Assembly: GCA_016794425.1 (NCBI GenBank)
Contig: JAEUHR010000042.1
Span: 144,749 to 208,748 of the forward strand
DNA length: 64,000 nt
DNA from: Planctomycetota bacterium
Lineage (GTDB): Bacteria; Planctomycetota; UBA1135; UBA2386
Reading direction: 5' to 3'
Both the position numbers and the translations under genes were made by a program. Of this stretch, positions 32,519 to 60,915 are shown piece by piece (within the stretch, counting starts at the first letter, position 1; every line of letters starts with the position of its first letter). The notes under the pieces were generated by a model that worked only from the letters and a program-made list of their open reading frames with translations, did no database searches and was not told where the DNA came from.

Positions 32519-32733
32519 CGCGGGTCGTCGGCCGCCCGTTGCGTGGGTCCCCGCGGCGTCCGGAACGGCCCGACCCGCGGCGGGAGGCGACGTCGTGTTG
32601 CTCCGTCAGGAGCCACCCGACCCACAAGTCCGCGGGTCGTCGGCCGCCCGCTGCGTGCTTCCCCGCGGCGTCAGGAACGGCCCGACCCGCGGAGGGAGGC
32701 GACGTCGTGTTGCTCCGTCAGGAGCAACCCGAC
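32519..32733. repeat. Two tandem copies (period 112 bp) of the nrdJ 3' terminus plus downstream sequence
   Basis: Copy A (32519..32621) and copy B (32631..32733) align over 103 bp with 6 mismatches by my count. Copy B contains the true nrdJ stop and last five codons. Copy A carries a pseudo-end (SGGS-stop versus SGCS-stop). Confidence 0.85.
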
Positions 32734-47238: not shown

Positions 47239-48383
47239 ACGACGGTCGGCGCTGCTGCGGAGCCGTCGCGCGCACCGCGTTGGCCGTGCTGGTCGCCGCC
47301 GCTGCGGGCGCGGCGCAGCAGGGCAGCGGCGATCCAGCGCGACCGCAGCCGCCCGAACGCACCGGCCGGCCGGACCCGTTCCTGCAGCCCAACCAGCCGC
47401 AGCAGCCGCGCGACCCGCTGGACCCGGTCTGGGGCACGCTGCCGCGGCCGTCGTTCGACGGCTTCCCGGTGTTCCCGTCGCGCCTGTCGGGCTACGGCGG
47501 CTACCCGCAGCCGGCGCGCCCGCTGCAACCGGGGCAGTTGCCGACCGTGCAGTTCCCGCCGGGCCTGATGCCGCTGCTGCCGGTCGCGGCGCCGGAGCCG
47601 CCGGGCTGGCCGGCGTGGGTCCGGCTGGCCGAGCGGGAGCCGCTGCCGTTCGCACCGGACCGCGCGCTGCTGGTGCAGAACTCGGATCGCGTCTGGTGGC
47701 GCGGCACCACCGACGAGCCGTTCGTACCGCTGTTCTTCCACGACAAGCTGCGCGCGCTCGAACCTGGCGCCGAGGTCGAAGTGCGCCAGAGCGGCGAGTT
47801 CGAACTGCTGCTGCACACGAGCAGCCGGGTCGTCGCGACCGGTCCGACCGAGCTGCGGCTCGTCGCGATGGACGCGGGCCACGTCGAACTGGACCTGCGG
47901 TCGTTCACGCGGCTGCGCGTGCAGGCCCGCGACCGCGACCACGTGCTGCGGCTGCCCGATGGCTCGCGGCTCGAAGCCGCGGCGCCGGCGCCGGACGAGG
48001 CCGCGCCCGGCCCGGTGCTGCTGCTGTTGCAGCGCGCCGACGAACCGAGCCGTTACGGCGGCCGCGCGACGATCTTCAACATCGGCGCACGGCCCGTGCG
48101 CTGGGTGCACGCGTTCGGTACCACCACGCTCGAACCCGACCACCGCGTCACGATGTTCCTGCGGCCGCCCGCCATCGCGGTGGGCGCCGGTCTCGCCGAA
48201 CTCGGCGGCCGCGCCGAGCCGACCAGCGGCGGGCGCGCGCTCGACTTCCGCGGCGCCGACGACGCCGAACTTTCCTGGTGCGGCGCGCGGTTCCAGGTCG
48301 GCGCCGGCAGCGTGCTGCGGCTCGACGCCGGCCAGGGTGCGCCCTTCGCACCGATCCCTCTCACCTCGAACGACACCCCATGA
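47235..48383 (+). CDS. Hypothetical secreted Pro-rich protein
   Basis: GTG 47235 overlaps the pfkA stop (GTGA). The signal-peptide-like N-terminus is [29 protein letters not shown] Pro/Gln-rich linker is followed by a probable beta-rich C-terminal domain. I recognise no domain. Confidence 0.55.
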
Positions 48384-49333
48384 AGGAAAAGCCTCGTGCA
48401 CTCGTGACCGGCGGCGCCGGTTTCATCGGTTCCCATCTCTGCGAACGCCTGCTGGCCGACGGCTGCCAGGTGATCGCGATGGACAACCTGATCACCGGCG
48501 CGCTGTCGAACATCGAGCACCTGTTCGGCAACCCGGACTTCGTGTTCCACCACCAGGACGTCACGAACTTCATCCACGTCTCGGGCCGGCTCGACTACAT
48601 CCTGCACTTCGCGTCGCCGGCGAGCCCGATCGACTACCTGGAGCTGCCGATCCAGACGCTGAAGGTCGGCGCGCTGGGCACGCACAAGGCGCTCGGTCTC
48701 GCGAAGGCCAAGGGCGCACGGTTGCTGCTGGCCAGCACCAGCGAGGTCTACGGCGATCCGCTCGTGCACCCGCAGCGCGAGGACTACTGGGGCAACGTCA
48801 ACCCGGTCGGGCCACGCGGCGTCTACGACGAGGCCAAGCGCTTCGCCGAGGCGATGACGATGGCCTACCAGCGCACGCACGGCGTCGAGACCCGGATCGT
48901 GCGCATCTTCAACACCTACGGACCGCGCATGCGGCTCAACGACGGCCGCGTGCTGCCGGCGTTCATGAGCCAGGCGCTGGCCGGGCGGCCGCTGACCGTG
49001 TTCGGCGACGGCTCGCAGACGCGCAGCTTCTGCTACGTCGACGACCTGGTCGAAGGCATCCTGCGGCTGTTGCGCAGCGACGAGAAGGAACCGGTCAACA
49101 TCGGCAACCCGCGCGAGATGACGATCCTGCAGTTCGGGGAAGCCGTGCAGAAGGCGACCGGCTCGAAGGTGCCGATCGAGTTCCGGCCGCTGCCGGTCGA
49201 CGACCCGAAGGTGCGGCGCCCCGACATCGGCAAGGCGCAGCGCGTGCTCGGCGGCTGGGAGCCGAAGGTCGCGCTCGAAGAGGGCCTGCGGCGCACGACC
49301 GAGTACTTCCGCAAGAAGCTCGCGAAGGGCTGA
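48380..49333 (+). CDS. UDP-glucuronate decarboxylase (UDP-xylose synthase)-type extended SDR
   Basis: [21 protein letters not shown] and YDEAKR are present. Similarity to the UXS/ArnA C-terminal domain type is strong overall. The ATG overlaps the upstream stop (ATGA). Confidence 0.88.
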
Positions 49334-49339: not shown

Positions 49340-50302
49340 GTGCGCGCCGCCGACACCGCCGCCGCGGTCGGGGCCGCTGCCGCGCGTCTGCGCGACCGGG
49401 TGGTCCGCACGCCGCTGGTGCCGAGCCCGTGGCTGTCCGCCGCGACCGGCGCCGAGGTGCGCTGCAAGCTCGAGAACGTGCAGCGGACCGGTTCGTTCAA
49501 GCTGCGTGGGGCGCTGCACGCGCTGCTGCAGCTCGAACCGGTCGCCCGCGCGCACGGCGTCGTCGCCGCGTCGTCGGGCAACCACGGCCTGGGCCTCGCG
49601 ACCGCCGCCGCGGAGCTCGGCGTGCCGGCGCACGTCTGCGTGCCGAACGCGACCGCCGCGGCCAAGGTGGCCGCGATCGAACGCGCCGGCGCGCGCGTCG
49701 AGCGCCACGGCGACGACTGCGTCGACACCGAACGCCACGCGCGCGCGCTGGCTGCGGCCACCGGTCGCGCCTACGTGTCGCCGTACAACGACCCGAACGT
49801 GGTCGCCGGCCAGGGCACCGTCGCGGTCGAGCTGCTCGAGCAGTGGCCGGCGGTCGAGGTGGTCTACGTCGCGGTCGGCGGCGGCGGTCTGATCGGCGGC
49901 ATGGCGGCGTGGGCGAAGTCGGTGCGGCCCGGCCTCGAGTTCGTCGGCTGTTCGCCGCTGGCGTCGCCGGCGATGGTGCAGTGCGTGCGGCGCGGCGCGA
50001 TCGTCGACGTGCCGTGCACCGACACGCTGTCCGACAGCACGGCCGGCGGCGTCGAACCCGGGGCGATCACGTTCGCCTTGTGCCGCGACCTGGTCGACCG
50101 CTGGCTCGACGTCGACGAGCCGGCGATCGGCCGCGCGCTGGTCGACACGCTCGAGCACCAGCACCTGCTGGTCGAAGGCGCCGCCGCGGTCGCGGTTGCG
50201 GCGTGCCGCCAGGACGCGGCGCTGCGCGGGCGCCGCGCGGCGATCGTGCTCTGCGGCGGCAACCTGCCGCTGGCCGTGCTGCGCCGGCTGCTGTGCGGCT
50301 GA
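49340..50302 (+). CDS. Fold-type II PLP enzyme, serine/threonine dehydratase (or racemase)-like
   Basis: The PLP-lysine motif GSFKLRGA, SSGNHG and the Gly loop GGGGLIGG are present. The protein is 320 aa with a GTG start. Confidence 0.85.
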   Translation: MRAADTAAAVGAAAARLRDRVVRTPLVPSPWLSAATGAEVRCKLENVQRTGSFKLRGALHALLQLEPVARAHGVVAASSGNHGLGLATAAAELGVPAHVCVPNATAAAKVAAIERAGARVERHGDDCVDTERHARALAAATGRAYVSPYNDPNVVAGQGTVAVELLEQWPAVEVVYVAVGGGGLIGGMAAWAKSVRPGLEFVGCSPLASPAMVQCVRRGAIVDVPCTDTLSDSTAGGVEPGAITFALCRDLVDRWLDVDEPAIGRALVDTLEHQHLLVEGAAAVAVAACRQDAALRGRRAAIVLCGGNLPLAVLRRLLCG

Positions 50303-50375
50303 GCCCGTTCAAGTCGCCGCGGCGCCGCCACCGATAGGCCGATGGCAACGGTCCCTCGTGGGGCCGGGCGTCGGC

Positions 50376-51656
50376 ATGGCATCGGATCGACTGCACGAAG
50401 GGGACTCGGGGTTCACGGCGATGGTGCTCGCCGGCGGACTCGGCACGCGGCTGCGGCCGGCGCTCGGCGATCGGCCGAAGGCGCTGGCGCCGGTCGACGG
50501 CGAGCCGTTCTTGCTGCACGTGCTCGACCAGCTCGCCGCCGCGGGTTGCCGGCGCGCGATCCTGTGCACCGGCCACCTGGCCGAGGCGATCGAACGCGAG
50601 TTCGGCGGTGACCACGACGGCATGGAACTCGTGCACTCGCGCGAGCCGCGTCCGCTCGGCACCGCCGGCGCGCTGCGCCGGGCGCTGCCGCGGCTCGGCG
50701 AGCCCGGCGTGCTGGTCGTGAACGGCGACTCGTACGTCGACCTCGATCTGCGGCAGTTCGTCGCCTGGGCGCGCACGCAGCCGAACGTGCCGGCGCTGGT
50801 CGCGGTCACGGTGCCCGACGCCGGTCGCTACGGCGCCGTGCAGTGCGATGCCGACGACCGCGTGACCGCGTTCGGCGAGAAGTCGGCGCGCGGGCCCGGC
50901 GCGATCAACGCCGGCGTCTACTGGCTGCCGGCGCGCGTGCTGGCGCTGCTGCCGCCGGACACGCCGTGCTCGCTCGAGCGCGAAGTGCTGCCGGTGCTGG
51001 TCGGCAGCGGCCTGCGCGCGTTCCGCTGCGAGGCGCCGTTCCTGGACATCGGCGTGCCCGAGGCCTGGGCCGCGGCCGGCGCGTTCTTCGCCGCCTGTGC
51101 GCGGCGCCGCACGCGGGCGCCCTCCGCCGGGTTGCTGGTCGTCGACCGCGACGGCACGTTGATCGACGAACGGCACTACCTGGCCGATCCGGCCGGCGTG
51201 CAGCTGCTGCCCGGCGTCGTCGACGGGCTGCGTGCGTTCGCGGCCAACGGCTACCGGATCGCAGTGGTCACGAACCAGTCCGGCATCGGCCGCGGTTACT
51301 TCGACGAGGCGGCCCTGCAGGCGGTGCACGCCGAGCTGTGCCGCCAGCTCGCGGCGCACGGCGTCGTGCTCGACGGCATCTGGCACTGCCCGCACCGGCC
51401 CGACGAGGGCTGTCGCTGTCGCAAGCCGAACCCGCAGCTGCTCGAGCACGCGCTCGGCGAACTCGGGGTGCCGCGCGAACGGTGCCTCGTGGTCGGCGAC
51501 AAGGCCTGCGACATCGACCTCGGCACGCGGCTCGGCGTGCGCACCGCGCTGGTGCGCACCGGCTACGGCACCGGCACCGAGCGCGACGGACTGTGTGCGC
51601 CCGACGTGGTCGTCGACTCCCTGTTCGAACTGGCGCAGCGGGAGGTGCTCGCGTGA
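50376..51656 (+). CDS. Fusion: sugar-1-phosphate nucleotidyltransferase (HddC-like) plus D,D-heptose 1,7-bisphosphate phosphatase (GmhB, HAD-IIIA)
   Basis: The N-terminal VLAGGLGTRLRP matches the NTP_transferase signature. The C-terminal has VVDRDGTLI, TNQSGIGRGYF, CPHRPDEGCRCRKPNP (the GmhB zinc/Cys motif) and VVGDKACD. Confidence 0.8.
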   Translation: MASDRLHEGDSGFTAMVLAGGLGTRLRPALGDRPKALAPVDGEPFLLHVLDQLAAAGCRRAILCTGHLAEAIEREFGGDHDGMELVHSREPRPLGTAGALRRALPRLGEPGVLVVNGDSYVDLDLRQFVAWARTQPNVPALVAVTVPDAGRYGAVQCDADDRVTAFGEKSARGPGAINAGVYWLPARVLALLPPDTPCSLEREVLPVLVGSGLRAFRCEAPFLDIGVPEAWAAAGAFFAACARRRTRAPSAGLLVVDRDGTLIDERHYLADPAGVQLLPGVVDGLRAFAANGYRIAVVTNQSGIGRGYFDEAALQAVHAELCRQLAAHGVVLDGIWHCPHRPDEGCRCRKPNPQLLEHALGELGVPRERCLVVGDKACDIDLGTRLGVRTALVRTGYGTGTERDGLCAPDVVVDSLFELAQREVLA

Positions 51657-52777
51657 TCGTCAGCCGTACCCCGTTCCGGATCTCGTTCTTCGGCGGCGGC
51701 ACCGACTACCCCGAGTGGTACCTGACGCACGGCGGCGCGGTGCTGTCGACGACGATCGACAAGTACTGCTACCTGAGCTGCCGCTACCTGCCGCCGTTCT
51801 TCGACTATCGCTATCGGGTCGTCTGGTCGAAGGTCGAGAACTGCCGCACGCTGGCCGAGATCGAGCACCCGGTCGTGCGCGTGCTGCTGGGCCACCTCGG
51901 CATCGAACGCGGCCTCGAAGTGCACCACGTCGGTGACCTGCCGGCGCGCAGCGGCATGGGCTCCAGTTCGGCCTTCACGGTCGGGCTGCTGCACGCGCTG
52001 TACGCGCTGCAGGGCCGCATGGTCGGCAAGCAGGAGCTGATGCGCGAGGCGATCCACGCCGAGCAGGTGCTGCTGCGCGAGACCGTCGGGTCGCAGGACC
52101 AGGTGGCGGCCGCGTTCGGCGGCTTCAACCGGATCGGCTTCGCGCCGGGCGGCCAGATCACCGTGACGCCGGTCGTGCTGCGGCCGGGCCGCGTCGAAGA
52201 GCTCGACCGGCACCTGATGCTGTTCTACACCGGCATCGTGCGCACCGCGTCGAAGGTCGCGGCCGGCTACGTGACCGACCTCGTGCACAAGCGGCGCCAG
52301 CTGCGCATCCTGCGCGACCTCGTCGACGAGAGCATCGAACTGCTGGCCAGCGACCGCTCGATCGCGGGCTTCGGCGACCTGCTCGACGAGGCGTGGGCGC
52401 AGAAGCGCAGCATCGCGCGCGGCATCAGCACCGACGAGGTCGACGACGTCTACGCGCGTGCGCGCGGAGCCGGCGCGCTCGGCGGCAAGATCACCGGCGC
52501 CGGCGGCGGCGGCTTCCTGCTGCTGTTCGTGCCGCCCGAACGCCAGGCCGCGGTCGCGGCCGCGCTGCCCGAACTGGTGCACGTGCCGTTCCGGTTCGAA
52601 TCGTCGGGCAGCCAGATCATCTTCTACGACCGCGAGGAGGACTTCTCGTCGGTCGAGGCCGCGCAGCGCGGTCGCCCGATCGCCGCGTTCCGTGAGGCGG
52701 ACGCGCCGGGCGCAGTGCTGCCGTGGCCGATCCCGTACCCGCGTACCCCCGAACCGGCCGCCCCGGGCCAGCCCTGA
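51653..52777 (+). CDS. GHMP-family sugar kinase, D-glycero-alpha-D-manno-heptose-7-phosphate kinase (HddA)-like
   Basis: GTG 51653 overlaps the upstream stop (GTGA). It starts SRTPFRISFFGGGTDYPEW and has the GHMP motif PARSGMGSSSAF and KITGAGGGGF. Confidence 0.8.
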   Translation: MIVSRTPFRISFFGGGTDYPEWYLTHGGAVLSTTIDKYCYLSCRYLPPFFDYRYRVVWSKVENCRTLAEIEHPVVRVLLGHLGIERGLEVHHVGDLPARSGMGSSSAFTVGLLHALYALQGRMVGKQELMREAIHAEQVLLRETVGSQDQVAAAFGGFNRIGFAPGGQITVTPVVLRPGRVEELDRHLMLFYTGIVRTASKVAAGYVTDLVHKRRQLRILRDLVDESIELLASDRSIAGFGDLLDEAWAQKRSIARGISTDEVDDVYARARGAGALGGKITGAGGGGFLLLFVPPERQAAVAAALPELVHVPFRFESSGSQIIFYDREEDFSSVEAAQRGRPIAAFREADAPGAVLPWPIPYPRTPEPAAPGQP

Positions 52778-52779
52778 CC

Positions 52780-53727
52780 ATGACCCGAACCACGACCATC
52801 GACCGCGCCGACGTCACGTGGCTGCTGCGCCGCATGCGCCTGATCCGTCAGGCCAGCGAACGCATCGCCAGGCTCTACCCGACCGACGTGATGGAGACGC
52901 CGGTGCACCTGTGCATCGGCCAGGAAGCCGTCCCGGTCGGCCTGTGCCGGCACCTGCGCGACGACGACAAGCTGTTCCTGGGCCACCGCACGCACGGCCC
53001 CGCGCTCGCGAAGGGTCTGCCGCTGCCGAAGCTGATGGCGGAGCTGTACGGCCGCACGACCGGCTGCTCGCACGGCTACGGCGGCTCGATGCACGTGATC
53101 GACCTCGAACACGGGCTGCCCGGCAGTTCGGCGATCGTCGGCGGCAGCATCGCGCTCGGCGTCGGGGCCGGCCTCGCCGCGAAGCTGACCGGCGCCAGCT
53201 GGATCGGTGTGTCGTACTTCGGCGACGCGGCGACCAACGCCGGCGTGTTCTACGAGAGCCTGAACTTCGCCGCGCTGCGCCGGCTGCCGGTGCTGTTCCT
53301 GTGCGAGGACAACGGCTGGTCGAACGTGATGCCGAAGAGCGCACACTCGGCGCACGACATCACCGGCGTGGCGGAGCAGATGATGCCGGTGCTGCAGGCC
53401 GACGGCACCGACGCGCTGTCGGTCTACGAGCACGCCGGCCACGCCGTCGAACGCATCCGCGGCGGCGGCGGCCCGATGCTGCTGCACTGCCGCACCAAGC
53501 GCTGGATGAAGCACCAGGGGCCGGAGCGCTGCGACCTGGCCGCGAACCACATCGACCCCGAGCGCGACTGCCCGATCGTCAGGCTCGAAACGTGGGCACA
53601 GCGCAGCGGCATGCTGGGCGCCGACGAGTGCACCGCGATCACGGCCGAGATCGAACGCGAGATCGACGCGGCGATCGCGTTCGCCGAGGCGTCGCCGTTT
53701 CCGCAGCCCGAACTGGTGGAGGTCTGA
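52780..53727 (+). CDS. Thiamine-diphosphate-dependent 2-oxoacid dehydrogenase E1 component, alpha subunit-like
   Basis: The TPP-binding motif is GDAATNAGVFYESLNFAALRRLPVLFLCEDNGW. The start is ATG 52780, 2 nt after the upstream stop. Confidence 0.85.
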   Translation: MTRTTTIDRADVTWLLRRMRLIRQASERIARLYPTDVMETPVHLCIGQEAVPVGLCRHLRDDDKLFLGHRTHGPALAKGLPLPKLMAELYGRTTGCSHGYGGSMHVIDLEHGLPGSSAIVGGSIALGVGAGLAAKLTGASWIGVSYFGDAATNAGVFYESLNFAALRRLPVLFLCEDNGWSNVMPKSAHSAHDITGVAEQMMPVLQADGTDALSVYEHAGHAVERIRGGGGPMLLHCRTKRWMKHQGPERCDLAANHIDPERDCPIVRLETWAQRSGMLGADECTAITAEIEREIDAAIAFAEASPFPQPELVEV

Positions 53728-53729
53728 CC

Positions 53730-54761
53730 ATGCCCTGGAGCAAATTCCGTCAGGACTACGCGGCGCCGACCGGCGGCCGCCCGCTCAGCTACTGCGCCGC
53801 GATCCGCGAAGCGATCGACCAGGCGATGCGGCACGACCCGCGCGTGTTCGCGATCGGCCTCGACGCCGACGACAAGTTCGGTGTGTTCGGTTCGATGGCG
53901 AACCTGACGCACCCCGAGCGCGTGCTCGGCACGCCGATCGCCGAGAACGCGATGACCGGCGTCGCGCTCGGCGCGGCGCTCAGCGGCTTGCGGCCGATCC
54001 ACGTGCACCTGCGCAACGACTTCCTGCTGGTGGCGATGGACCAGATCGTCAACTACGTCGCGAAGTGGCAGGACATGTTCGACCACCAGGTGCGCGTGCC
54101 GCTGGTGATCCGTTCGATCATCGGCCGCGGCTGGGGCTGCGGTGCGCAGCACTCGCAGTCGCTGCACGGCCTGTTCGCGCAGGTGCCGGGCCTCAAGGTC
54201 GTGATGCCGTCGACGCCGTACGACGTGAAGGGCCTGTTCCTGGCCGCGGTCGCCGACGATTCGCCGGTGTTGTTCCTCGAACACCGCTGGCTCTACAAGA
54301 ACACCGGCGACGTGCCGGAAGCGCTGTACACGCTGCCGTTCGGCCGCTGCGCGCGCCTGCACGAAGGCGAGAGCCTGACCGTCGTCGCGGCGTCGCTGGC
54401 GGCGGTGCACGCGCGGCTGGCCTGTGAGACGCACGGGCTCGACGTCGATCTGCTCGATCCGCGCACGATCAAGCCGCTCGACATCGACGGCATCGTCGCC
54501 TCGGTGCAGCGCACCGGGCGCCTGCTGGTGGTGGACCACGACTTCCCGTTCGGCGGCTTCGCGGCCGAGATCGTCGCGCAGGTCGCCGAACGCGCGCACG
54601 GCGCGCTGCGGCAGCCGCCGCAGCGGATCTGCTTCCCGGACCGCGGCATGCCGGCCAGCGGCGTGCTCGAACGCGCCTACTACCCGACGCCGGACCGGCT
54701 CGCGGCGGCGATGCAGGCGATGCTGGCCGGCGAACTCGTGGGAGGCGGCCATGGCTTCTGA
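53730..54761 (+). CDS. 2-oxoacid dehydrogenase E1 component, beta subunit-like (transketolase pyrimidine-binding and C-terminal domains)
   Basis: RVLGTPIAENAMTGVALGAALSG, GAQHSQS and PRTIKPLD are present. The start is ATG 53730, 2 nt after the alpha-subunit stop. Confidence 0.85.
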   Translation: MPWSKFRQDYAAPTGGRPLSYCAAIREAIDQAMRHDPRVFAIGLDADDKFGVFGSMANLTHPERVLGTPIAENAMTGVALGAALSGLRPIHVHLRNDFLLVAMDQIVNYVAKWQDMFDHQVRVPLVIRSIIGRGWGCGAQHSQSLHGLFAQVPGLKVVMPSTPYDVKGLFLAAVADDSPVLFLEHRWLYKNTGDVPEALYTLPFGRCARLHEGESLTVVAASLAAVHARLACETHGLDVDLLDPRTIKPLDIDGIVASVQRTGRLLVVDHDFPFGGFAAEIVAQVAERAHGALRQPPQRICFPDRGMPASGVLERAYYPTPDRLAAAMQAMLAGELVGGGHGF

Positions 54762-56295
54762 GGCCGGCGTCGACCTGCTGCTGGTGAACCCCGGCGGCCG
54801 CGGGCGGATCTACCAGAACCTCGGCACCGAACTGGCGGCCAAGGAGCCGCCGATCTGGGCCGGCCTGCTGGCGACGCACGCGCGGCGGCGGGGCCGGTCG
54901 GTCGCGATCCTCGACGCGAACGCGCTCGACCTGGCGCCGGCCGACGTCGCCCGCGAAGTCGAAGCACTGCGGCCGCGGCTCGTCGTCGTGACCGTCTACG
55001 GTCACAACCCGAACGCGTCGACGTTCGCGATGCCCGGCGCGACCGACATCTGCGACGCGCTGGCGACGGCCGTGCCCGAGGTGCCGGTGATGCTGCTCGG
55101 CGGCCATGTCGCGGCGCTGCCGGAACGCACGCTGCGCGAGGAGAACGTCGACTTCGTCTGCGGCGGCGAGGGCCCGATCACGATCGACGAACTGCTCGGC
55201 GCGCTGGCGGCCTCGCCGCAGCGCCCCGAGCTGCAGAAGGTTCGCGGCCTCTGGTGGTGGGACGGCGACACCGTCGTGCAGAACCCGCCGGCGCCGATCG
55301 TGCGCGACCTCGCCGGCGAGATGCCGGGCATGGCCTGGGACCTGCTGCCGATGGACCGCTACCGCGCGCACAACTGGCACTGCTTCGGCCGGCCGGACCG
55401 GGCGCCGTACGCGGCGCTCTACACGACGCTCGGCTGTCCGTTCACCTGCACGTTCTGCTGCATCCAGGCGCCGTTCAAGTCCGGCGAAGCCGCGGCCGGG
55501 CTCGACCCGACCAAGAACAGCTACCGGCGCTTCGATCCGCAGCACGTGGTCGCACAGATCGCGCGGCTGCACGCCGACCACGGCGTGCAGAACGTCAAGA
55601 TCGCCGACGAGCTGTTCCTGCTGCACAAGGACCACGTCGGTGCGATCTGCGACGGGCTGATCGAGCTCGGCGCGGACCTGAACCTGTGGGCCTATGCGCG
55701 CGTCGACACGTGCCGCGACGCGGCGCTGCTGGCCCGCATGCGGCAGGCCGGTGTGCGTTGGCTCGCGATCGGCATCGAGTCGGCCAGCGAGACCGTGCGT
55801 GCCGGCGTCGACAAGGGCTACCGCCCCGAAGCGATCGCGAAGGCGATCGGGCTCGTGCGCGAGGCCGGCATCCACGTGATGGGCAACTACATCTTCGGCC
55901 TGCCCGACGACGACCACGCGTCGATGCGGCTGACGCTCGACTTCGCGAAGGAGCTCAACACCGAGTTCGCGAACTTCTTCTCGGCGATGGCCTACCCGGG
56001 CTCGCAGCTGTACCGCGACGCGATCCGGCGCGGCTGGCCGCTGCCGGCCAGCTGGGCCGGCTACTCGCAGCACGCCCGCGACAGCCTGCCGCTGCCGACG
56101 CGCCACCTGACCGGCGCCGAGGTGCTGTCGTTCCGCGACGCGGCGTTCGTCGAGTACTTCGACCGCCCCGAGTACCGTGCGATGGTGCAGCGTACGTTCG
56201 GCCCGGCGACCGCGGCCGAGGTCGCGCGCATGGTCGCGCAGCCGCTGCCGCGCGTGCACACAGCGCCGCGGCCCGAGCCGGTCGGGGCGCGATGA
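54751..56295 (+). CDS. B12-binding-domain radical SAM protein (class B radical SAM)
   Basis: ATG 54751 overlaps the E1 beta gene by 11 nt. The N-terminal Rossmann-like B12-binding region (DLLLVNP...SVAILDAN) is followed by the radical SAM motif GCPFTCTFC. Confidence 0.85.
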   Translation: MASEAGVDLLLVNPGGRGRIYQNLGTELAAKEPPIWAGLLATHARRRGRSVAILDANALDLAPADVAREVEALRPRLVVVTVYGHNPNASTFAMPGATDICDALATAVPEVPVMLLGGHVAALPERTLREENVDFVCGGEGPITIDELLGALAASPQRPELQKVRGLWWWDGDTVVQNPPAPIVRDLAGEMPGMAWDLLPMDRYRAHNWHCFGRPDRAPYAALYTTLGCPFTCTFCCIQAPFKSGEAAAGLDPTKNSYRRFDPQHVVAQIARLHADHGVQNVKIADELFLLHKDHVGAICDGLIELGADLNLWAYARVDTCRDAALLARMRQAGVRWLAIGIESASETVRAGVDKGYRPEAIAKAIGLVREAGIHVMGNYIFGLPDDDHASMRLTLDFAKELNTEFANFFSAMAYPGSQLYRDAIRRGWPLPASWAGYSQHARDSLPLPTRHLTGAEVLSFRDAAFVEYFDRPEYRAMVQRTFGPATAAEVARMVAQPLPRVHTAPRPEPVGAR

Positions 56296-58823
56296 GCGAA
56301 CCCCTGCTGACCGCGATGGTCTCGACCTACGCCAGCGAGCGCTACCTCGCCGGCTGCCTCGACGACCTGCTGCAGCAGACGATCGCCGCGCGGATCGAGA
56401 TCGTCGTCGTCGACGCGGCATCGCCCGAGCGCGAGGGCGAGCTGGTGCGGGCCTACCAGCGGCACGCGCCGAACCTGCGCTACGTGCGCGCCGAGACCCG
56501 CGAGGGCACTTCGGCGGCGTTCCGCCGTGCGACCGCGCTGGCGCGCGGGCGCTACCTGACCACGGCGAACACCGACGACCGGCACCATCCGGAGTTCGCG
56601 GCGCGTATGGTCGAGGCGCTCGAACGGCACCCGGAGTTCGGGCTCTGCTATGCCGACTCGCTGATCACGCAGCGCGACAACGAGACCTGGCAGGTGCACA
56701 CGGCGCACAAGCGCTACGCGTGGCCGGACTACACGCCGGCGACCGCGCTGTCGTGCTGCCTGTTCGGCGCGCAGGCGGTCTGGCGGCGGTCCGTGCACAC
56801 GACGGTCGGCGACTGGGACGACGCGCATCCGTTCGCGAACGACCAGGACATGTTCCTGCGCATCGCGCGGCGGTTCGGGGCCGTGCACCTGCGGGCGCCG
56901 CTGGGCCTGTTCCTGCAGCGGCCGGACAGCCAGAGCGGCAGCGGCAACCGCCGCGCGACCCTGGCCGACGTGCTGGCCGTGCTGCGCAAGCACCGCTCGA
57001 GCTGGTCGCTCGACGAGGTGTTCCCGGCGCTGCAGCGCGACGACACGCCGGCCGCGCGCGCGGCAGCCTGGTTCGAACTCGGCAACCTGTGCGCACTGGG
57101 GCCGTACACGGACGCCGAGCTGGCGCTGCAGTGCTACGAGCGCGGTCTGCGCGAGCCGACCGACGGCGCCGCCGCCGCGCAGATCCGCGCGGCGTTCGCG
57201 AACAACACCGGCTGCGTGCTGGCGTGTGCCGGCGCGGCGCTGCCGGCGCAGCGCGCATTCGGGCTGTGCGACGACGTCGAACTGGTGGCCGACAACCGCG
57301 AGCGGCTGCAGCGGCGGCGGCAACGAGGGGGACTGCCGCGGCTCGACGAGCTGCGGTTCGCGCAACCGGAACACGCCGTCGTGCACGCGGCGCGCCGCGC
57401 CCGCGCGCTCGTGCTCGGCGACGACGGCGGCATGCGCTGGTCGGCGAGCCGCGCGCAGGTGCCGTGGAGCGCGTTCCCGGGCGCCGACGGCGTGCCGATC
57501 GCCCAGCCGGCCGAGCCCGCGCGGCGAGCGGCCGTGGTGGTGCCGCGGCCGGGGCCGCACGTGATGCTGGTCATGTACGGCTGGGCCGACAGCGGCGGTG
57601 GCACGATCCTGCCGCGCGCCGTGGCGCGGCAACTGGCTGCCGCGGGCCATCGCGTGTCGGTGGTGAGCGCGGCGGCGCGGCCGGACCCGGCGCTGCCGCC
57701 GTACGCGGTGCGGCGCGAACACGAGGACGGCGTCGACCTGTTCGCGATCGTCAACCGGCCGAGCGATTTCCTCGACCCGCAACACCCCGAGCGCGAGATC
57801 GACGATCCGGCGGTGCGGACGGCGTTCGCGGCGCTGCTCGACGAGCGGCGGCCGGATGTCGTGCACTTCTGGAACCTGCACAACCTCGGCCTCTCCCTGC
57901 CCGGCGAGTGCCGGCAGCGCGGTATCCCGACCGTGCTGTCGTCGAACAACTACTGGGCGCTGTGCCCACGCGCCTACCTGTTCGACGCGGCGCTGCGCCG
58001 CTGCGAGGGCGGCAGCGACGACGGCAAGAAGTGCGCACGCTGCGTCGGCACGCCGGCGGCCGCACCGGCGCACGCGGCACGCCGGCGCGCGGCGGTCCGC
58101 ATGCTGCGCGGTGACATCGACGTGCACCTGGCGGTGTCGCAGCGCGTGCGCGAGCTCTACGTGCAGAACGGCGACGAGCCGGGCCACGTGCGCGTGCTGC
58201 GGCAGGAGCCGCCCGAGGTCGCCGCGATCTGGCAGCGCACCGGCAGCCGGCGCGCGATCACCGCCGAACTGCGGCGGCCGCTGCGGGTCGGCTTCTTCGG
58301 CTCGGTGCTGCCGCACAAGGGCCTGCACGTGCTGGTGCAGGCGCTGCAGCTGCTGCCCGAGGTGCCGCTGGTCGCGGTCGCGCTCGGCGATGCCGACCCC
58401 GGCTACGCGGCGCGGCTCGCCGAACTGGACCGGTTGCGGCGGCTGCACCTGCATGGCCCGTATCCGCCGGCCGCGCTGCCGGAGCTGCTGGCGACCGTCG
58501 ACGTCGTCGTGGTGCCATCGGTGTGGGACGACTGCGCGCCGTACGTGGTCGCCGAGGCGCTCGCAGCGCGCTGTCCGGTGGTGGGCAGCGCGGCCGGCGG
58601 CATCCCGGACTTCGTACGGGCCGGGCACAACGGACTGCTGTTCCCGCCCGGCGACGCGGCGGCGCTGGCGGCGTGCCTGCGGTCGTTCGTGCAGGACCCG
58701 CGGCAGCTCGGCCGCATGCAGGCGGCGATCGAACCGCCGCGCGGCCTGCCGGCGTTCACGGCCGAACTGCTGGCCGTCTACCGCGAACTCGAACCGGCGG
58801 CCGGGCGCCTGCAGCCGGCCTGA
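56292..58823 (+). CDS. Two-domain glycosyltransferase: N-terminal GT2 (GT-A) plus C-terminal GT4/GT1-type (GT-B)
   Basis: The ATG overlaps the upstream stop (ATGA). The N-terminal is MVSTYASERYLAGCLDDLLQQT...VVVDAASPE...TANTDD. The C-terminal is VVVPSVWDDCAPYVVAEALAARCPVVGSAAGGIPDFV...GLLFPPGD. Confidence 0.8.
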   Translation: MSEPLLTAMVSTYASERYLAGCLDDLLQQTIAARIEIVVVDAASPEREGELVRAYQRHAPNLRYVRAETREGTSAAFRRATALARGRYLTTANTDDRHHPEFAARMVEALERHPEFGLCYADSLITQRDNETWQVHTAHKRYAWPDYTPATALSCCLFGAQAVWRRSVHTTVGDWDDAHPFANDQDMFLRIARRFGAVHLRAPLGLFLQRPDSQSGSGNRRATLADVLAVLRKHRSSWSLDEVFPALQRDDTPAARAAAWFELGNLCALGPYTDAELALQCYERGLREPTDGAAAAQIRAAFANNTGCVLACAGAALPAQRAFGLCDDVELVADNRERLQRRRQRGGLPRLDELRFAQPEHAVVHAARRARALVLGDDGGMRWSASRAQVPWSAFPGADGVPIAQPAEPARRAAVVVPRPGPHVMLVMYGWADSGGGTILPRAVARQLAAAGHRVSVVSAAARPDPALPPYAVRREHEDGVDLFAIVNRPSDFLDPQHPEREIDDPAVRTAFAALLDERRPDVVHFWNLHNLGLSLPGECRQRGIPTVLSSNNYWALCPRAYLFDAALRRCEGGSDDGKKCARCVGTPAAAPAHAARRRAAVRMLRGDIDVHLAVSQRVRELYVQNGDEPGHVRVLRQEPPEVAAIWQRTGSRRAITAELRRPLRVGFFGSVLPHKGLHVLVQALQLLPEVPLVAVALGDADPGYAARLAELDRLRRLHLHGPYPPAALPELLATVDVVVVPSVWDDCAPYVVAEALAARCPVVGSAAGGIPDFVRAGHNGLLFPPGDAAALAACLRSFVQDPRQLGRMQAAIEPPRGLPAFTAELLAVYRELEPAAGRLQPA

Positions 58824-59966: not shown

Positions 59967-60115
59967 CGGCGGGAACTGGCGCAGGAACACGGGCACGGAC
60001 CATACCCGGGGCCGCGGCCCGGCGTCACGTTCGCCCGGCCGGCCGGTTGCGTGCAGCAGCGAAGTCGGCGCGGCGGCCGGCGCGGGGGACCCGGCGATCT
60101 GGTAGCGTCGCACCG

Positions 60116-60343: not shown

Positions 60344-60393
60344 CGTTCTGCGCCCTCAAGCCGACGGCGCCGAGCCGCCGATAGGAAGGGCGG

Positions 60394-60915
60394 ATGCGCG
60401 TCTTCGAGACCGAACTGCAGGGCGTGCGGCGGATCGAGCCCGAGGTCTTCACCGACCACCGCGGCAGCTATGTCGAACTGTTCGACAGCGAGAAGTACCG
60501 CGCCGCGTGTGGTGGGGTCACGTTCGTGCAGGACGACATCTCGGTGTCGCACACGAACGTGCTGCGTGGCCTGCACGGCGACTGGCAGACCACGAAGCTG
60601 GTGTCGGTGCTCGCCGGCGAGGGCTACGCGCTGCTGGCCGACAACCGGCCCGATTCGCCGACCTACCGCCGCTGGCAGGCGTTCGTGCTGGACGGCACCA
60701 GCCGGCACCAGCTGCTGATTCCGCCCGGCATCGGCAACTCGGTCTACGTCGTGCAGGGGCCGCTGGTCTACTGGTACAAGCAGAACCAGCACTGGGCGCC
60801 CGGACGGCAGTTCACGATCCGCTGGGACGACCCGAGCTGGGGCTTCGAATGGCCGACGCGCGACCCGATCCTCTCGGCGCGCGACGCGAAGGGGGACTAT
60901 GTCACGGCGCCCTAG
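60394..60915 (+). CDS. RmlC-type cupin: nucleotide-4-keto-6-deoxy-sugar 3,5- (or 3-) epimerase
   Basis: FTDHRGSYVELF, VLRGLHG and LLIPPGIGNSVYV match the dTDP-4-dehydrorhamnose 3,5-epimerase family. Confidence 0.85.
   Translation: MRVFETELQGVRRIEPEVFTDHRGSYVELFDSEKYRAACGGVTFVQDDISVSHTNVLRGLHGDWQTTKLVSVLAGEGYALLADNRPDSPTYRRWQAFVLDGTSRHQLLIPPGIGNSVYVVQGPLVYWYKQNQHWAPGRQFTIRWDDPSWGFEWPTRDPILSARDAKGDYVTAP

What the first reader, a model, noticed from the sequence alone, without database searches (positions are those of the whole stretch)
49340..54761. Orphan 2-oxoacid dehydrogenase E1 alpha/beta pair without E2/E3, with a PLP Ser/Thr dehydratase-like gene upstream
Seen: E1 alpha (TPP motif GDAATN...EDNGW) and E1 beta lie 2 nt apart. 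The beta gene overlaps the radical SAM gene by 11 nt. No lipoyl-bearing E2 or E3 gene lies anywhere in the cluster. A fold-type II PLP enzyme (GSFKLRGA) lies three genes upstream.

Established: Ser/Thr dehydratases produce pyruvate or 2-oxobutyrate. E1 enzymes decarboxylate 2-oxoacids to a TPP-bound acyl-anion equivalent.

Inference: the dehydratase could supply the 2-oxoacid locally. The E1 pair could then transfer a hydroxyethyl or hydroxypropyl (acyl) unit onto a 4-keto sugar made by the GMD-like dehydratase, rather than onto lipoamide.
Basis: inference. Interest (0 to 1): 0.65.

Follow-up and report, generated by a model that had tools for sequence, protein, structure and literature searches.

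The report
Sugar-branching thiamine enzyme pair, heptose operon
The two "pyruvate dehydrogenase E1" genes most likely do not serve energy metabolism: they sit in a Planctomycete operon for a modified seven-carbon surface sugar, and probably add a short carbon branch to it, a known but rare chemistry found here in a new setting.

Summary
**Observation: confirmed.**
- E1 alpha is at 52780-53727 and E1 beta at 53730-54761, 2 nt apart.
- E1 beta overlaps a B12-radical-SAM gene by 11 nt.
- There is no lipoyl E2 or E3 in the cluster.
- A Thr/Ser dehydratase gene (49340-50302) is the third gene upstream.

**Host.** A Planctomycete MAG, not an actinomycete.

**The pair is not a canonical dehydrogenase E1.**
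- Both subunits score below the curated PDH cut-offs.
- They group with E1 pairs found in sugar clusters, apart from all E2-linked pairs (98-100/100 bootstraps).
- The acidic beta residue that salt-bridges to E2 is Arg here.
- An active-site Phe next to the catalytic His is an invariant Arg.

**Neighbours.** They are best matched by solved GDP-heptose enzymes: the kinase, the 4,6-dehydratase (363 bits) and the 3,5-epimerase. The core module (kinase, nucleotidyltransferase, E1 alpha/beta, B12-rSAM) recurs across many phyla. One carrier is a plasmid of the cultured Solidesulfovibrio magneticus RS-1.

**Best reading.** An E2-independent thiamine carboligase of the AviB1/AviB2 ("alphaKADH2") kind branches a 4-keto-6-deoxyheptose.

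**Dehydratase link: not supported.** That gene belongs to a conserved housekeeping block, which also occurs without the sugar cassette.

**Verdict.** A new variant of a known kind, of moderate interest.

The parts
50358..51656 (+). Fusion of a sugar-1-phosphate nucleotidyltransferase (HddC-like) and a HAD-IIIA phosphatase (GmhB-like). First gene of the conserved cassette.
   Evidence: Pfam NTP_transferase + HAD. NCBIfam hits to the heptose 1,7-bisphosphate phosphatase and to HddC. Conserved directly upstream of the kinase in L001, L006, L086-L089.
51653..52777 (+). GHMP kinase of the heptose-7-phosphate kinase type (HddA/WcbL-like).
   Evidence: Pfam GHMP_kinases_N/C. Best NCBIfam match is HddA. 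Best PDB matches are WcbL 4USK and the heptose kinases 3K85/4N3O, about 130 bits. It is 48-62% identical to kinases next to E1 alpha/beta in other phyla.
52780..53727 (+). E1 alpha-like ThDP subunit, 315 aa. ThDP/Mg motif GDAATN...EDNGW at aa 148-180. The catalytic His is kept (His245, in KRWMKHQ). The phosphorylation-loop motif of canonical E1 alpha is absent.
   Evidence: PF00676. It scores 252 bits against a TIGR03182 cut-off of 394. Alignment to human E1 alpha. Signature '(T/S/C)PxH' (T40, P41) of the sugar-context class. More than 120 Planctomycete homologues at 61-100% identity.
53730..54761 (+). E1 beta-like subunit, 343 aa. Keeps the ThDP-activating Glu (AENA, aa 71-74) and the catalytic His (AQHS, aa 139-142). 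Arg294 replaces the acidic E2-docking residue. His93/Arg95 replace Ile80/Phe82 of the G. stearothermophilus enzyme.
   Evidence: PF02779+PF02780. It scores 247 bits against a cut-off of 321. Alignment to 1W85/3DUF beta. Class-specific columns. It scores 416 bits on the sugar-context HMM and 338 on the E2-linked HMM. Residue roles from PMC2663715 and PMC5554223.
54751..56295 (+). B12-binding-domain radical SAM enzyme, with CxxxCxxC at aa 229-236. Its role is unknown: C-methylation or another radical modification of the sugar.
   Evidence: PF02310+PF04055. Only sub-threshold NCBIfam hits, to BchE and HpnJ at about 140 bits. Best PDB hit is AprD4 (6FD2), 69 bits. Homologues at 42-62% identity accompany the kinase and E1 alpha/beta in other phyla.
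56292..58823 (+). Fused GT2 + GT4 glycosyltransferase, 843 aa. Last gene of the co-directional cassette.
   Evidence: Pfam. Conserved after the radical SAM gene in L001, L006, L086, L087, L089. Present as GT4 alone in L003-5 and GT2 alone in L088.
58824..60113 (-). Class I/II aminotransferase. Membership in the pathway is uncertain. It could transaminate a branch ketone or be unrelated.
   Evidence: PF00155. A 77%-identical homologue lies near the cassette in L088. Absent from the other relatives' flanks.
60385..60915 (+). RmlC-like cupin, a probable GDP-6-deoxy-4-keto-heptose 3,5- or 3-epimerase.
   Evidence: PF00908. Best PDB matches are C. jejuni GDP-4-keto-heptose epimerases 7M14, 8DB5 and 8DCO, about 120 bits. 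Found near the cassette in L003-5, L086, L087 and L089. Absent from the cassette-free loci L090-92.
60899..61915 (+). GDP-D-glycero-D-manno-heptose 4,6-dehydratase homologue (SSE aa 131-133, YxxxK aa 157-161). It would make the 4-keto acceptor.
   Evidence: PDB 7US5 at E 1e-107, 363 bits, against about 150 bits to GDP-mannose dehydratases. Paired with the cupin in L086, L087 and L089.
62054..63610 (-). 518-aa class I SAM methyltransferase-domain protein associated with the cassette.
   Evidence: Pfam. Homologues at 53-65% identity lie next to the cassette in L001 and L003-5.
49340..50302 (+). Thr/Ser dehydratase (fold-type II PLP). It was part of the finding, but is judged NOT to belong to the cassette. 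It is the last gene of the conserved housekeeping block.
   Evidence: NCBIfam NF005292, 377 bits against a cut-off of 371. Orthologues in L090-L092 end the same block with no cassette downstream. Absent next to the cassette in L001, L003-5 and L089.
48380..49333 (+). UDP-xylose-synthase/RmlB-like SDR. A lineage-specific insertion between the unknown gene and the PLP gene. A pathway role is not shown.
   Evidence: Pfam/NCBIfam. Present at 93% identity in L006 only. Absent from L086-L088, where PLP directly follows the unknown gene.

Best explanation
The E1 alpha/beta pair is an E2-independent thiamine-diphosphate carboligase that belongs to a surface-glycan operon, not to a 2-oxoacid dehydrogenase complex.

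**Proposed pathway, with each step marked as shown or inferred:**
1. D-glycero-D-manno-heptose 7-phosphate is phosphorylated by the GHMP kinase, dephosphorylated at C7 by the HAD domain, and nucleotidylated by the fused transferase to give GDP-heptose. This is inferred from homology to solved enzymes. The isomerase GmhA must be encoded elsewhere.
2. The 7US5-like dehydratase makes GDP-6-deoxy-4-keto-heptose, and the cupin epimerises it. This is inferred from strong homology.
3. E1 alpha/beta decarboxylates a 2-oxoacid, most likely pyruvate, to hydroxyethylidene-ThDP. It then adds this unit to the C4 ketone, giving a 4-C-acetyl tertiary alcohol. This is inferred from clade membership, gene context, and analogy with AviB1/B2, Pau11/12 and KbDH.
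4. The B12-radical-SAM enzyme further modifies the sugar or its branch. Its function is unknown; C-methylation is the default guess.
5. The GT2-GT4 fusion transfers the product into a glycan.

The branch could instead be added after glycosyl transfer, as has been proposed for avilamycin and paulomycin.
For: **(1) Not a canonical E1.**
- Alpha scores 252 bits against a cut-off of 394, and beta 247 against 321.
- There is no E2 or E3 in the cluster.

**(2) Clade.**
- NJ trees on L-INS-i alignments place the window and its Planctomycete relatives with sugar-context E1 pairs.
- That clade excludes every E2-linked pair in 98/100 (alpha), 100/100 (beta) and 100/100 (concatenated) bootstraps.
- Class HMMs agree: beta 416 vs 338 bits, alpha 343 vs 321 bits.

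**(3) Residues.**
- The beta Asp/Glu of the 'LDAP' motif corresponds to human beta-D319 in precursor numbering (D289 by my own count of the mature chain) and to G. stearothermophilus position 285. PMC5554223 identifies it as the salt-bridge residue for the E2 peripheral-subunit-binding domain.
- It is Asp in 18 of 20 E2-linked sequences, with a Glu and a Lys in the other two. It is Arg294 in the window and never acidic in the sugar-context class, where Lys/Arg/Gln are commonest.
- Beta Phe82 is part of the hydrophobic nest around the catalytic His128 (PMC2663715). It is an invariant Arg in the sugar class, 18/18.
- The catalytic Glu, both catalytic His residues and the Mg/ThDP motif are retained.

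**(4) Context.**
- Of 34 alpha genes carrying the signature, none has an E2 or E3 within 8 kb. Instead 20 have an SDR, 15 an RfbH/ColD-like 3-dehydratase, 13 the heptose kinase and 13 a radical SAM gene.
- Of 41 alpha genes without the signature, 22 have an E2.

**(5) A heptose 4-keto acceptor is available.**
- The dehydratase matches 7US5 at 363 bits.
- The epimerase matches 7M14/8DB5 and the kinase matches WcbL/HddA.
- The dehydratase-epimerase pair is present only where the cassette is present (against 66-68).

**(6) Precedent.**
- E1 alpha/beta-type enzymes that branch deoxy-keto sugars with pyruvate are established. There is genetic evidence (AviB1/B2, Pau11/12) and in vitro evidence (KbDH-alpha/beta) (PMC12247030, PMC4425429, PMC4753412).
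Against: - There is no biochemical evidence, and no product is known from any Planctomycete.
- AviB1, Pau11 and KbDH sequences could not be retrieved. Membership of their subfamily therefore rests on context and signature, not on a joint tree.
- The trees are distance-based, and the comparison set was chosen by motif-matching to the query.
- The Planctomycete cassette has no obvious branch ketoreductase, no C4 reductase and no GmhA.
- In L003-5, L001 and L088 no 4,6-dehydratase was found in the flank held on the downstream side.
- The Planctomycete alpha subunit is the most divergent member around the active-site loop (KRWMKHQG against YRWREHVG).
- The radical SAM enzyme co-varies with the heptose kinase, and its role is unexplained. 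The true chemistry may therefore differ from a simple C2 branch.
Confidence: 0.6

Rival explanations
1. The pair acts earlier, on a sugar phosphate. Like DXP synthase or transketolase, it would condense a C2 unit with an aldose phosphate. The resulting unusual higher-carbon sugar phosphate would then be activated by the GHMP kinase, phosphatase and nucleotidyltransferase, as in the octose pathway of lincomycin (from my own knowledge).
For: - E1 beta has weak similarity to DXS and transketolase.
- In Planctomycetes the pair is translationally coupled to the kinase.
- GmhA is missing from the window, so the source of the sugar phosphate is not defined locally.
Against: - Across phyla, the most frequent partners of this E1 class after a generic epimerase/dehydratase-family SDR are RfbH/ColD-like 3-dehydratases. 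By homology, these act on NDP-4-keto-6-deoxy sugars.
- Several loci have those partners but no kinase called within 8 kb, for example L016, L020, L027 and L077.
- GmhA is present in some distant loci and on pDMC1, which points to ordinary heptose 7-phosphate as the input.
- The dehydratase and epimerase match GDP-heptose enzymes closely.
Confidence: 0.12
2. The adjacent Thr/Ser dehydratase makes 2-oxobutyrate or pyruvate specifically for the E1 pair, giving a hydroxypropyl/propionyl or hydroxyethyl branch.
For: - The PLP gene is co-directional and lies 55 nt upstream of the cassette's first gene.
- This arrangement is kept in L006, L007 and L086-L088.
- The enzyme is a bona fide Thr/Ser dehydratase by NCBIfam.
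Against: - PLP orthologues at 66-73% identity end the same housekeeping block in L090-L092, with no cassette after them.
- The cassette occurs without PLP in L001, L003-5 and L089, and in most of the distant loci. The exception is a 35%-identical PALP homologue, on the opposite strand, about 8 kb from E1 alpha/beta in L043.
- According to the 2025 review, the known enzymes of the class give C2 branches, and the one tested in vitro used only pyruvate (PMC12247030).
Confidence: 0.1
3. It is an ordinary catabolic E1 (pyruvate, acetoin or branched-chain 2-oxoacid) that uses an E2 and E3 encoded elsewhere. It would lie next to sugar genes by chance.
For: - The fold, the ThDP motif and the catalytic Glu/His residues are all canonical.
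- Public annotations call the homologues pyruvate or acetoin dehydrogenase.
- The genome must hold a lipoylated E2 somewhere, because the window encodes an OdhA-like fusion that lacks a lipoyl domain (the dependence on another E2 is from my own knowledge).
Against: - Both subunits score below the curated cut-offs.
- The pair is separated from all E2-linked pairs in 98-100% of bootstraps.
- The E2-docking acid is replaced by Arg, and the active site is remodelled.
- The pair is translationally coupled within a sugar operon.
- The same five-gene module is conserved across phyla.
Confidence: 0.05
4. The pair is a plain 2-oxoacid decarboxylase or acyloin-cleaving enzyme. It would supply an aldehyde or acyl unit for a non-carbohydrate substituent of the glycan, without forming a C-C bond to the sugar ring.
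For: - An E1 detached from E2 can act as a decarboxylase, as in the Carassius E1-derived pyruvate decarboxylase (PMC5554223).
- No branch ketoreductase lies in the Planctomycete cassette.
Against: - No aldehyde-using partner (dehydrogenase, acetal-forming or acyl-transfer enzyme) is consistently linked.
- The consistent partners are enzymes that create keto-sugar acceptors.
- The invariant cationic substitutions in the acceptor channel suggest a large polar or anionic second substrate. This is an inference.
Confidence: 0.08

Closest known systems
AviB1/AviB2, Pau11/Pau12, aldgamycin/kosinostatin enzymes and KbDH-alpha/beta: the 'alphaKADH2' sugar-branching ThDP enzymes of actinomycete antibiotic pathways (PMC12247030, PMC4425429, PMC4753412)
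   Same: - A split E1 alpha/beta pair of about 315-345 aa per subunit.
- Encoded without E2 or E3, inside a deoxy-sugar pathway that makes a keto-sugar acceptor.
- Proposed chemistry: decarboxylation of pyruvate and addition of the C2 unit to a ring ketone, giving a tertiary alcohol.
- A Streptomyces plasmid homologue in a BGC-like setting carries the same sequence signature.
   Different: - The host is a Planctomycete, and the same module occurs in many mostly uncultured phyla.
- The sugar is a GDP-activated heptose rather than the TDP-hexose route described for paulomycose.
- The setting looks like a surface-glycan operon (GT2-GT4 fusion), not an antibiotic cluster.
- A B12-radical-SAM enzyme is tightly coupled to the pair.
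- No direct sequence comparison with the named enzymes was possible here.
YerE / ErwE / MMAR_2332: decarboxylase-type ThDP enzymes that branch CDP-3,6-dideoxy-4-keto-glucose (PMC9306805)
   Same: - The same logic: a keto-sugar acceptor, a 2-oxoacid donor, then a reductase.
- In the distant relatives of this module, an RfbH/ColD-like 3-dehydratase and SDRs sit next to the ThDP enzyme, as in the yersiniose pathway.
   Different: - A different ThDP superfamily: single-chain and acetolactate-synthase-like, against the split E1 alpha/beta here.
- The Planctomycete cassette lacks the 3-dehydratase.
GDP-6-deoxy-heptose pathways of Campylobacter jejuni, Burkholderia pseudomallei and Yersinia pseudotuberculosis capsules and O-antigens (HddA/WcbL, GmhB, HddC, DmhA, epimerases; PDB 7US5, 7M14, 8DB5, 4USK)
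   Same: The kinase, phosphatase, nucleotidyltransferase, 4,6-dehydratase and 3,5-epimerase homologues are all present, and each is the best PDB match for its window gene.
   Different: - Those pathways, as I know them, end with a C4 reductase.
- Here no such reductase is evident. An E1 alpha/beta pair and a B12-radical-SAM enzyme take its place in the operon.
Canonical heterotetrameric E1 of pyruvate, branched-chain or acetoin dehydrogenase complexes (e.g. PDB 1W85, 1NI4, 1DTW)
   Same: - Fold, ThDP/Mg motif, beta-Glu59, beta-His128 and alpha-His271 equivalents.
- About 38-46% identity.
   Different: - No E2 or E3 partner.
- Both subunits score below the equivalog cut-offs.
- The E2-docking acid is Arg.
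- Beta Phe82 is Arg and Ile80 is His.
- The beta GEDV motif is lost.
- The alpha phosphorylation-loop motif is lost.

Membership tests
Heterotetrameric ThDP-dependent E1 (alpha: PF00676; beta: PF02779+PF02780) | Domain architecture of both subunits | tested here: met
   Alpha matches PF00676 at E 2e-49. Beta matches PF02779 at 2e-32 and PF02780 at 6e-25.
Heterotetrameric ThDP-dependent E1 (alpha: PF00676; beta: PF02779+PF02780) | ThDP/Mg motif, cofactor-activating Glu and the two catalytic His residues | tested here: met
   GDA...EDN at alpha 148-178. Beta Glu72 (AENA). Beta His141 (AQHS) corresponds to G. stearothermophilus H128. Alpha His245 corresponds to human H263. His245 is invariant in 23 family members.
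Canonical 2-oxoacid dehydrogenase complex E1 (PDH / BCKDH / acetoin) | Score above the curated equivalog or subfamily cut-offs | tested here: not met
   TIGR03182: 252 bits against 394. NF006667: 247 bits against 321.
Canonical 2-oxoacid dehydrogenase complex E1 (PDH / BCKDH / acetoin) | Genetic linkage to a lipoyl-bearing E2 and/or E3 | tested here: not met
   None in the cluster. E2 is adjacent to 0 of 34 signature-positive alpha genes and to 22 of 41 signature-negative ones. E2 and E3 elsewhere in the genome could not be examined.
Canonical 2-oxoacid dehydrogenase complex E1 (PDH / BCKDH / acetoin) | Acidic beta residue that salt-bridges to the E2 peripheral-subunit-binding domain (human beta-D319, precursor numbering) | tested here: not met
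   The window has Arg294. Asp is present in 18 of 20 E2-linked sequences. The residue is never acidic in the sugar-context class, where Lys/Arg/Gln are commonest. Residue role from PMC5554223.
Canonical 2-oxoacid dehydrogenase complex E1 (PDH / BCKDH / acetoin) | Phylogenetic placement among E2-linked E1 pairs | tested here: not met
   The clade of window plus sugar-context pairs excludes all E2-linked pairs in 98-100 of 100 NJ bootstraps.
alphaKADH2-type sugar C-branching enzymes (AviB1/B2, Pau11/12, KbDH) | E1 alpha/beta pair encoded in a sugar pathway, together with an enzyme that generates a keto-sugar acceptor | tested here: met
   Same operon as the heptose activation genes. A 7US5-like 4,6-dehydratase and a 4-keto-heptose epimerase lie 4 kb downstream and co-occur with the cassette.
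alphaKADH2-type sugar C-branching enzymes (AviB1/B2, Pau11/12, KbDH) | Sequence clustering with the characterised members | not testable with these tools
   The sequences of AviB1 (AAK83190), AviB2, Pau11/12 and KbDH could not be fetched. The Treede 2005 paper is not held. Indirect support only: a Streptomyces albogriseolus plasmid homologue in a BGC-like context shares the signature.
alphaKADH2-type sugar C-branching enzymes (AviB1/B2, Pau11/12, KbDH) | Carboligation of pyruvate with a ketone, giving a tertiary alpha-hydroxy ketone | not testable with these tools
   Needs an enzyme assay.
GDP-D-glycero-alpha-D-manno-heptose / 6-deoxyheptose pathway | HddA-type kinase, GmhB-type phosphatase and HddC-type transferase | tested here: met
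GDP-D-glycero-alpha-D-manno-heptose / 6-deoxyheptose pathway | GmhA (sedoheptulose-7-phosphate isomerase) in the locus | tested here: not met
   No homologue in the 64-kb window by tblastn at 1e-4. It is present in the distant loci L012, L023 and L042 and on pDMC1. It may lie elsewhere in the genome.
GDP-D-glycero-alpha-D-manno-heptose / 6-deoxyheptose pathway | Heptose-specific 4,6-dehydratase and 3,5-epimerase | tested here: met
   7US5 at 363 bits. 7M14/8DB5 at about 120 bits.
GDP-D-glycero-alpha-D-manno-heptose / 6-deoxyheptose pathway | C4 ketoreductase that completes the 6-deoxyheptose | tested here: inconclusive
   The only other SDR (48380-49333) is UXS/RmlB-like, and it is absent from most relatives' cassettes.

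The most novel reading that the evidence does not exclude
The window holds the Planctomycete version of a large, cross-phylum and so far undescribed pathway. In it, an E2-independent E1 alpha/beta carboligase and a cobalamin-type radical SAM enzyme together convert GDP-6-deoxy-4-keto-heptose into a C-branched, and possibly C-methylated, nine- or ten-carbon sugar not yet reported from any glycan. In the other phyla the substrate would be the 3,6-dideoxy form. The E1 class would be recognisable by a simple signature: alpha '(T/S/C)PxH', beta 'HxR', and loss of the E2-docking acid.
Probability: 0.4. Interest if true: 0.65.

Novelty: new variant of a known kind. Interest (0 to 1): 0.5.

Why it matters
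**Annotation.** Public annotation calls these genes pyruvate or acetoin dehydrogenase subunits. That would mislead metabolic reconstructions of Planctomycetes and of many uncultured phyla.

**Scope of the enzyme class.** If the reading is right, it extends E1-type sugar branching in three ways:
- from actinomycete antibiotics to cell-surface glycans of many bacterial phyla;
- from hexoses to heptoses;
- by adding a cobalamin-type radical SAM partner.

**A practical signature.** The work gives a short residue signature that separates E2-dependent from E2-independent E1 pairs.

**A testable system.** It points to culturable carriers in which the product could be identified: Solidesulfovibrio magneticus RS-1 plasmid pDMC1 and Azospirillum lipoferum 4B plasmid AZO_p6.

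**Biocatalysis.** ThDP enzymes that accept ketones are also sought as catalysts for making chiral tertiary alcohols (PMC12247030).

Tried and rejected
- **Actinomycete antibiotic cluster, assumed from 72% GC.** Rejected. The exact protein and its relatives are from Planctomycete MAGs, and the rest of the window is housekeeping.
- **Fetching the source contig by exact protein match.** This failed for E1 beta and for P0001. Context came from relatives instead.
- **My idea that the product could be erwiniose.** I had pictured it as a heptose plus a radical-SAM methyl plus a C2 branch. Dropped, because the literature derives erwiniose and caryophyllose from a 3,6-dideoxyhexose and a long 2-oxoacid through YerE-type enzymes (PMC9306805).
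- **A first NJ tree** (MAFFT auto, BLOSUM distance, midpoint root). It put the long Planctomycete branch beside the E2-linked group. L-INS-i alignments, corrected distances, rooting on an E2-linked member and bootstraps reversed this clearly, and the class HMMs agree.
- **PLP coupling.** Tested by synteny and rejected.
- **ColD/RfbH-like 3-dehydratase and GmhA in the window.** Searched for and not found.
- **Rfam and tRNA scans of the window.** Nothing real was found. The one 'tRNA-???' lies inside the PFK gene.
- **Named relatives.** AviB1, Pau11 and KbDH sequences could not be obtained, and the Treede 2005 paper is not held.
- **Literature on a heptose + ThDP + radical SAM pathway in Planctomycetes.** The one that ran (Planctomycetes, heptose, glycan, gene cluster, radical SAM) found nothing relevant.

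Full report
**1. What is in the sequence**

The window is 70-75% G+C. I therefore called genes by third-position GC and named them with Pfam and NCBIfam.

From 43.6 to 58.8 kb, all genes lie on the + strand. Most are separated by a few bases or overlap:

| Coordinates | Gene |
|---|---|
| 43599-44150 | AccB |
| 44160-45506 | AccC |
| 45503-46189 | unknown |
| 46186-47238 | PFK |
| 47235-48383 | unknown, Pro-rich |
| 48380-49333 | UXS-like SDR |
| 49340-50302 | Thr/Ser dehydratase |
| 50358-51656 | nucleotidyltransferase-HAD fusion |
| 51653-52777 | GHMP kinase |
| 52780-53727 | E1 alpha |
| 53730-54761 | E1 beta |
| 54751-56295 | B12-binding radical SAM |
| 56292-58823 | GT2-GT4 fusion |

Downstream lie a class I/II aminotransferase (58824-60113, -), an RmlC-like cupin (60385-60915), an SDR dehydratase (60899-61915) and a methyltransferase (62054-63610, -).

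- The E1 alpha/beta junction is TGA-CC-ATG.
- The E1 beta/radical SAM overlap is 11 nt.
- GDAATN...EDNGW and GSFKLRGA are both present.

No lipoyl E2 or E3 lies in the cluster. The only E2-like sequence in the window is the acyltransferase domain of an OdhA/Kgd-like fusion at 14140-17946.

**2. Whose DNA it is**

E1 alpha is identical to a protein of a Planctomycete MAG. It has more than 120 homologues at 61-100% identity, and those that carry a source name are from Planctomycete MAGs or are annotated as pyruvate/acetoin dehydrogenase alpha subunits. The remainder of the window is housekeeping: GcvP, a MiaB-like protein, RibD, class II ribonucleotide reductase, a DHDPS-family protein and others. 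This is not an actinomycete antibiotic cluster.

**3. What is conserved around the pair**

In Planctomycete relatives the order is kept: nucleotidyltransferase(-HAD), GHMP kinase, E1 alpha, E1 beta, B12-radical SAM, glycosyltransferase. This holds in L001, L003-5, L006 and L086-L089. The cupin + dehydratase pair and a methyltransferase usually lie nearby.

A scan of one genome per species gave only five loci at 69% identity or more, all labelled Planctomycetota. A second tier at 37-46% identity came from many phyla.

In that tier, several of the window's genes lie together again. Identities to the window proteins are 48-62% for the kinase and 42-57% for the radical SAM enzyme. The carriers include Myxococcales, two 'Deltaproteobacteria' MAGs, Omnitrophota, Nitrospirota, Dehalococcoidia, three Alphaproteobacteria and another Planctomycete. 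Not every locus holds every gene: two of them lack the radical SAM gene in the flank held, and two lack the transferase.

These loci add further genes:
- an RfbH/ColD-like DegT protein with His-His in place of the PLP lysine, which is a 3-dehydratase signature;
- GmhA;
- one or two SDRs, and a heptose-type 4,6-dehydratase.

Other loci link the pair to HldE, GmhA, GmhB and UDP-glucose dehydrogenase.

Two cultured bacteria carry the module on plasmids:
- Solidesulfovibrio magneticus RS-1 pDMC1 has GT2, GT2, radical SAM, NUDIX, kinase, E1 alpha, E1 beta, an Fcl-like SDR, DegT, an SDR, a transferase, a PMT-like glycosyltransferase and SIS/GmhA.
- Azospirillum lipoferum 4B AZO_p6 is the second carrier.

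**4. Is it a dehydrogenase-complex E1?**

The fold and the catalytic apparatus are intact. The ThDP/Mg motif, the beta-Glu59 and beta-His128 equivalents and the alpha catalytic His are all present. Four other lines of evidence argue against a complex-bound E1:

- **Scores.** Both subunits fall well below the curated PDH cut-offs.
- **Linkage.** Among the fetched loci, 22 have an E2 next to the pair, and several also an E3. These never coincide with the sugar genes. With a simple alpha-subunit signature, E2 adjacency is 0 of 34 against 22 of 41.
- **Trees.** A first quick tree was ambiguous. With better alignments and bootstraps, the clade of window + Planctomycete + sugar-context pairs excludes every E2-linked pair in 98/100 (alpha), 100/100 (beta) and 100/100 (concatenated) replicates. 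Class HMMs agree, strongly for beta at 416 against 338 bits.
- **Residues that differ between the classes**.
  - The beta 'LDAP' acid is Asp in 18 of 20 E2-linked sequences. It is Arg294 in the window and is never acidic in the sugar class. This is the residue whose loss (human beta-D319N) weakens E1-E2 binding more than 100-fold, and which a fish E1 lost when it became a free pyruvate decarboxylase (PMC5554223).
  - Beta Phe82 is part of the hydrophobic nest around the catalytic His128 in the G. stearothermophilus enzyme (PMC2663715). It is an invariant Arg in the sugar class, and Ile80 is His there.
  - The beta GEDV motif and the alpha phosphorylation-loop motif are also lost.

Among the 150 best representatives at 50% clustering, 53 carry the HxR motif. 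Only 2 of those also have LDAP, whereas 31 of the other 97 do. A Streptomyces albogriseolus plasmid homologue, lying among P450, DrrAB-like transporter and adenylation-enzyme genes, has the same signature.

**5. What the neighbours make**

| Window gene | Best solved relatives |
|---|---|
| Kinase | heptose-7-phosphate kinases WcbL/HddA |
| Fusion protein | HddC and GmhB (NCBIfam) |
| Dehydratase 60899-61915 | GDP-D-glycero-D-manno-heptose 4,6-dehydratase 7US5, 363 bits, against about 150 bits for GDP-mannose dehydratases |
| Cupin | C. jejuni GDP-4-keto-heptose epimerases |

Together these would yield GDP-6-deoxy-4-keto-heptose. The distant loci would yield its 3,6-dideoxy form. That is the same kind of acceptor that ThDP enzymes branch in the yersiniose, avilamycin, paulomycin and kibdelomycin pathways (PMC9306805, PMC4425429, PMC4753412, PMC12247030).

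The dehydratase-epimerase pair is present where the cassette is present. It is absent from the cassette-free relatives (against 66-68).

**6. The dehydratase idea**

The PLP gene is a genuine Thr/Ser dehydratase. Its orthologues (66-73% identity) in L090, L091 and L092 close the same block: S41 peptidase(-), MoaC, Asd, AccB, AccC, unknown, PFK, unknown, PLP. In those loci, however, they are followed by MFS, GAPDH or peptidase genes, with no sugar cassette.

Conversely, the cassette occurs after unrelated genes, without PLP, in L001, L003-5 and L089. The cassette was therefore inserted next to a housekeeping block, and the adjacency carries little functional weight.

**7. Conclusion and limits**

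The most likely function is an E2-independent ThDP carboligase of the AviB1/B2 ('alphaKADH2') kind. It would add a C2 unit from pyruvate to C4 of a 6-deoxy-4-keto-heptose. A B12-type radical SAM step of unknown nature and glycosyl transfer would follow.

What is shown:
- the gene content;
- the separation from E2-linked E1 pairs;
- the signature substitutions;
- the cross-phylum module.

What is inferred:
- the acceptor, the donor, and the order of steps;
- whether branching occurs on the nucleotide sugar or after transfer.

What I could not do:
- compare directly with AviB1, Pau11 or KbDH sequences;
- use maximum-likelihood phylogeny;
- inspect the rest of the genome.

This is a new variant of a known kind, of moderate interest. 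Its main value lies in correcting a widespread annotation and in pointing to a testable, widely distributed heptose-branching pathway.

Noticed in passing
window 14140-17946 (+): A 1268-aa OdhA/Kgd-like fusion. An E2-type acyltransferase catalytic domain without a lipoyl domain is followed by a 2-oxoglutarate dehydrogenase E1. As far as I know this architecture is typical of Actinobacteria, yet here it is in a Planctomycete MAG. It implies a lipoylated E2 elsewhere in the genome.
   Followed up: partly
window 52775-52782 and 53725-53732: The kinase/E1 alpha and E1 alpha/E1 beta junctions are the same octamer, TGACCATG. Together with the 4-nt and 11-nt overlaps around them, this suggests tight translational coupling of the whole cassette.
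   Followed up: no
window 48380-49333 (+): A UXS/RmlB-like SDR is inserted between the unknown gene and the PLP gene, only in the window and in L006 (93% identical). It is absent from L086-L088. A 60%-identical homologue sits next to a UDP-glucose dehydrogenase and an E1 alpha gene in L019.
   Followed up: partly
window 21930-23770: A stretch of about 1.8 kb with lower G+C (0.67) and a strong GC skew (+0.23), without a high-GC3 gene. The only long ORF (22413-23510, +) encodes a Gly/Val/Ala-rich protein with a signal-peptide-like start. Rfam found no match.
   Followed up: no
window 23772-27407: Two class I methyltransferases (-) lie next to a DinB_2 + FGE-sulfatase protein (26001-27407, +). 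From my own knowledge, that is the domain pair of EgtB/OvoA-type sulfoxide synthases, so these may be ergothioneine- or ovothiol-like genes.
   Followed up: no
window 32718-36350 (-): A class II (B12-dependent) ribonucleotide reductase with a TSCPD domain. The organism evidently uses cobalamin, which is consistent with a functional B12-type radical SAM enzyme in the cassette.
   Followed up: no
L094 (Solidesulfovibrio magneticus RS-1 plasmid pDMC1), about 6100-23300: The full module lies on a 58.7-kb plasmid and is flanked on both sides by IS66-family transposase genes. It contains the radical SAM gene, kinase, E1 alpha/beta, SDRs, DegT, transferase, a PMT-like glycosyltransferase and GmhA. 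It may therefore be mobile.
   Followed up: partly
L055 (Reyranellaceae MAG) 7006-12044: Two different E1 alpha/beta pairs lie in tandem, separated by a short-chain dehydrogenase. They sit inside a cluster with the heptose kinase, a 66%-identical heptose 4,6-dehydratase and a cupin. This could mean two successive branching steps or two donor specificities.
   Followed up: no
Protein-representative hits P0247-P0376: About a quarter of the 150 closest E1 beta representatives are 560-860 aa, with the beta-like part in the C-terminal half, so they look like alpha-beta fusions. Fifteen of these 39 carry the HxR signature of the sugar-context class.
   Followed up: partly
L011, L049, L078 (and other loci of HldE cluster 18): In these loci the E1 pair is linked to HldE, the bifunctional kinase/adenylyltransferase of the ADP-heptose route. 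GmhA, GmhB and UDP-glucose dehydrogenase are often present too, and the GHMP/GDP route is absent. The association with heptose therefore holds across two different activation routes.
   Followed up: partly
window 47235-48383 (+) and orthologues in L086-L092: A Pro-rich protein of 380-455 aa with no Pfam match is always found between PFK and the PLP gene in this Planctomycete lineage. In L090, which has no PFK gene, it still directly precedes PLP. Its function is unknown.
   Followed up: no
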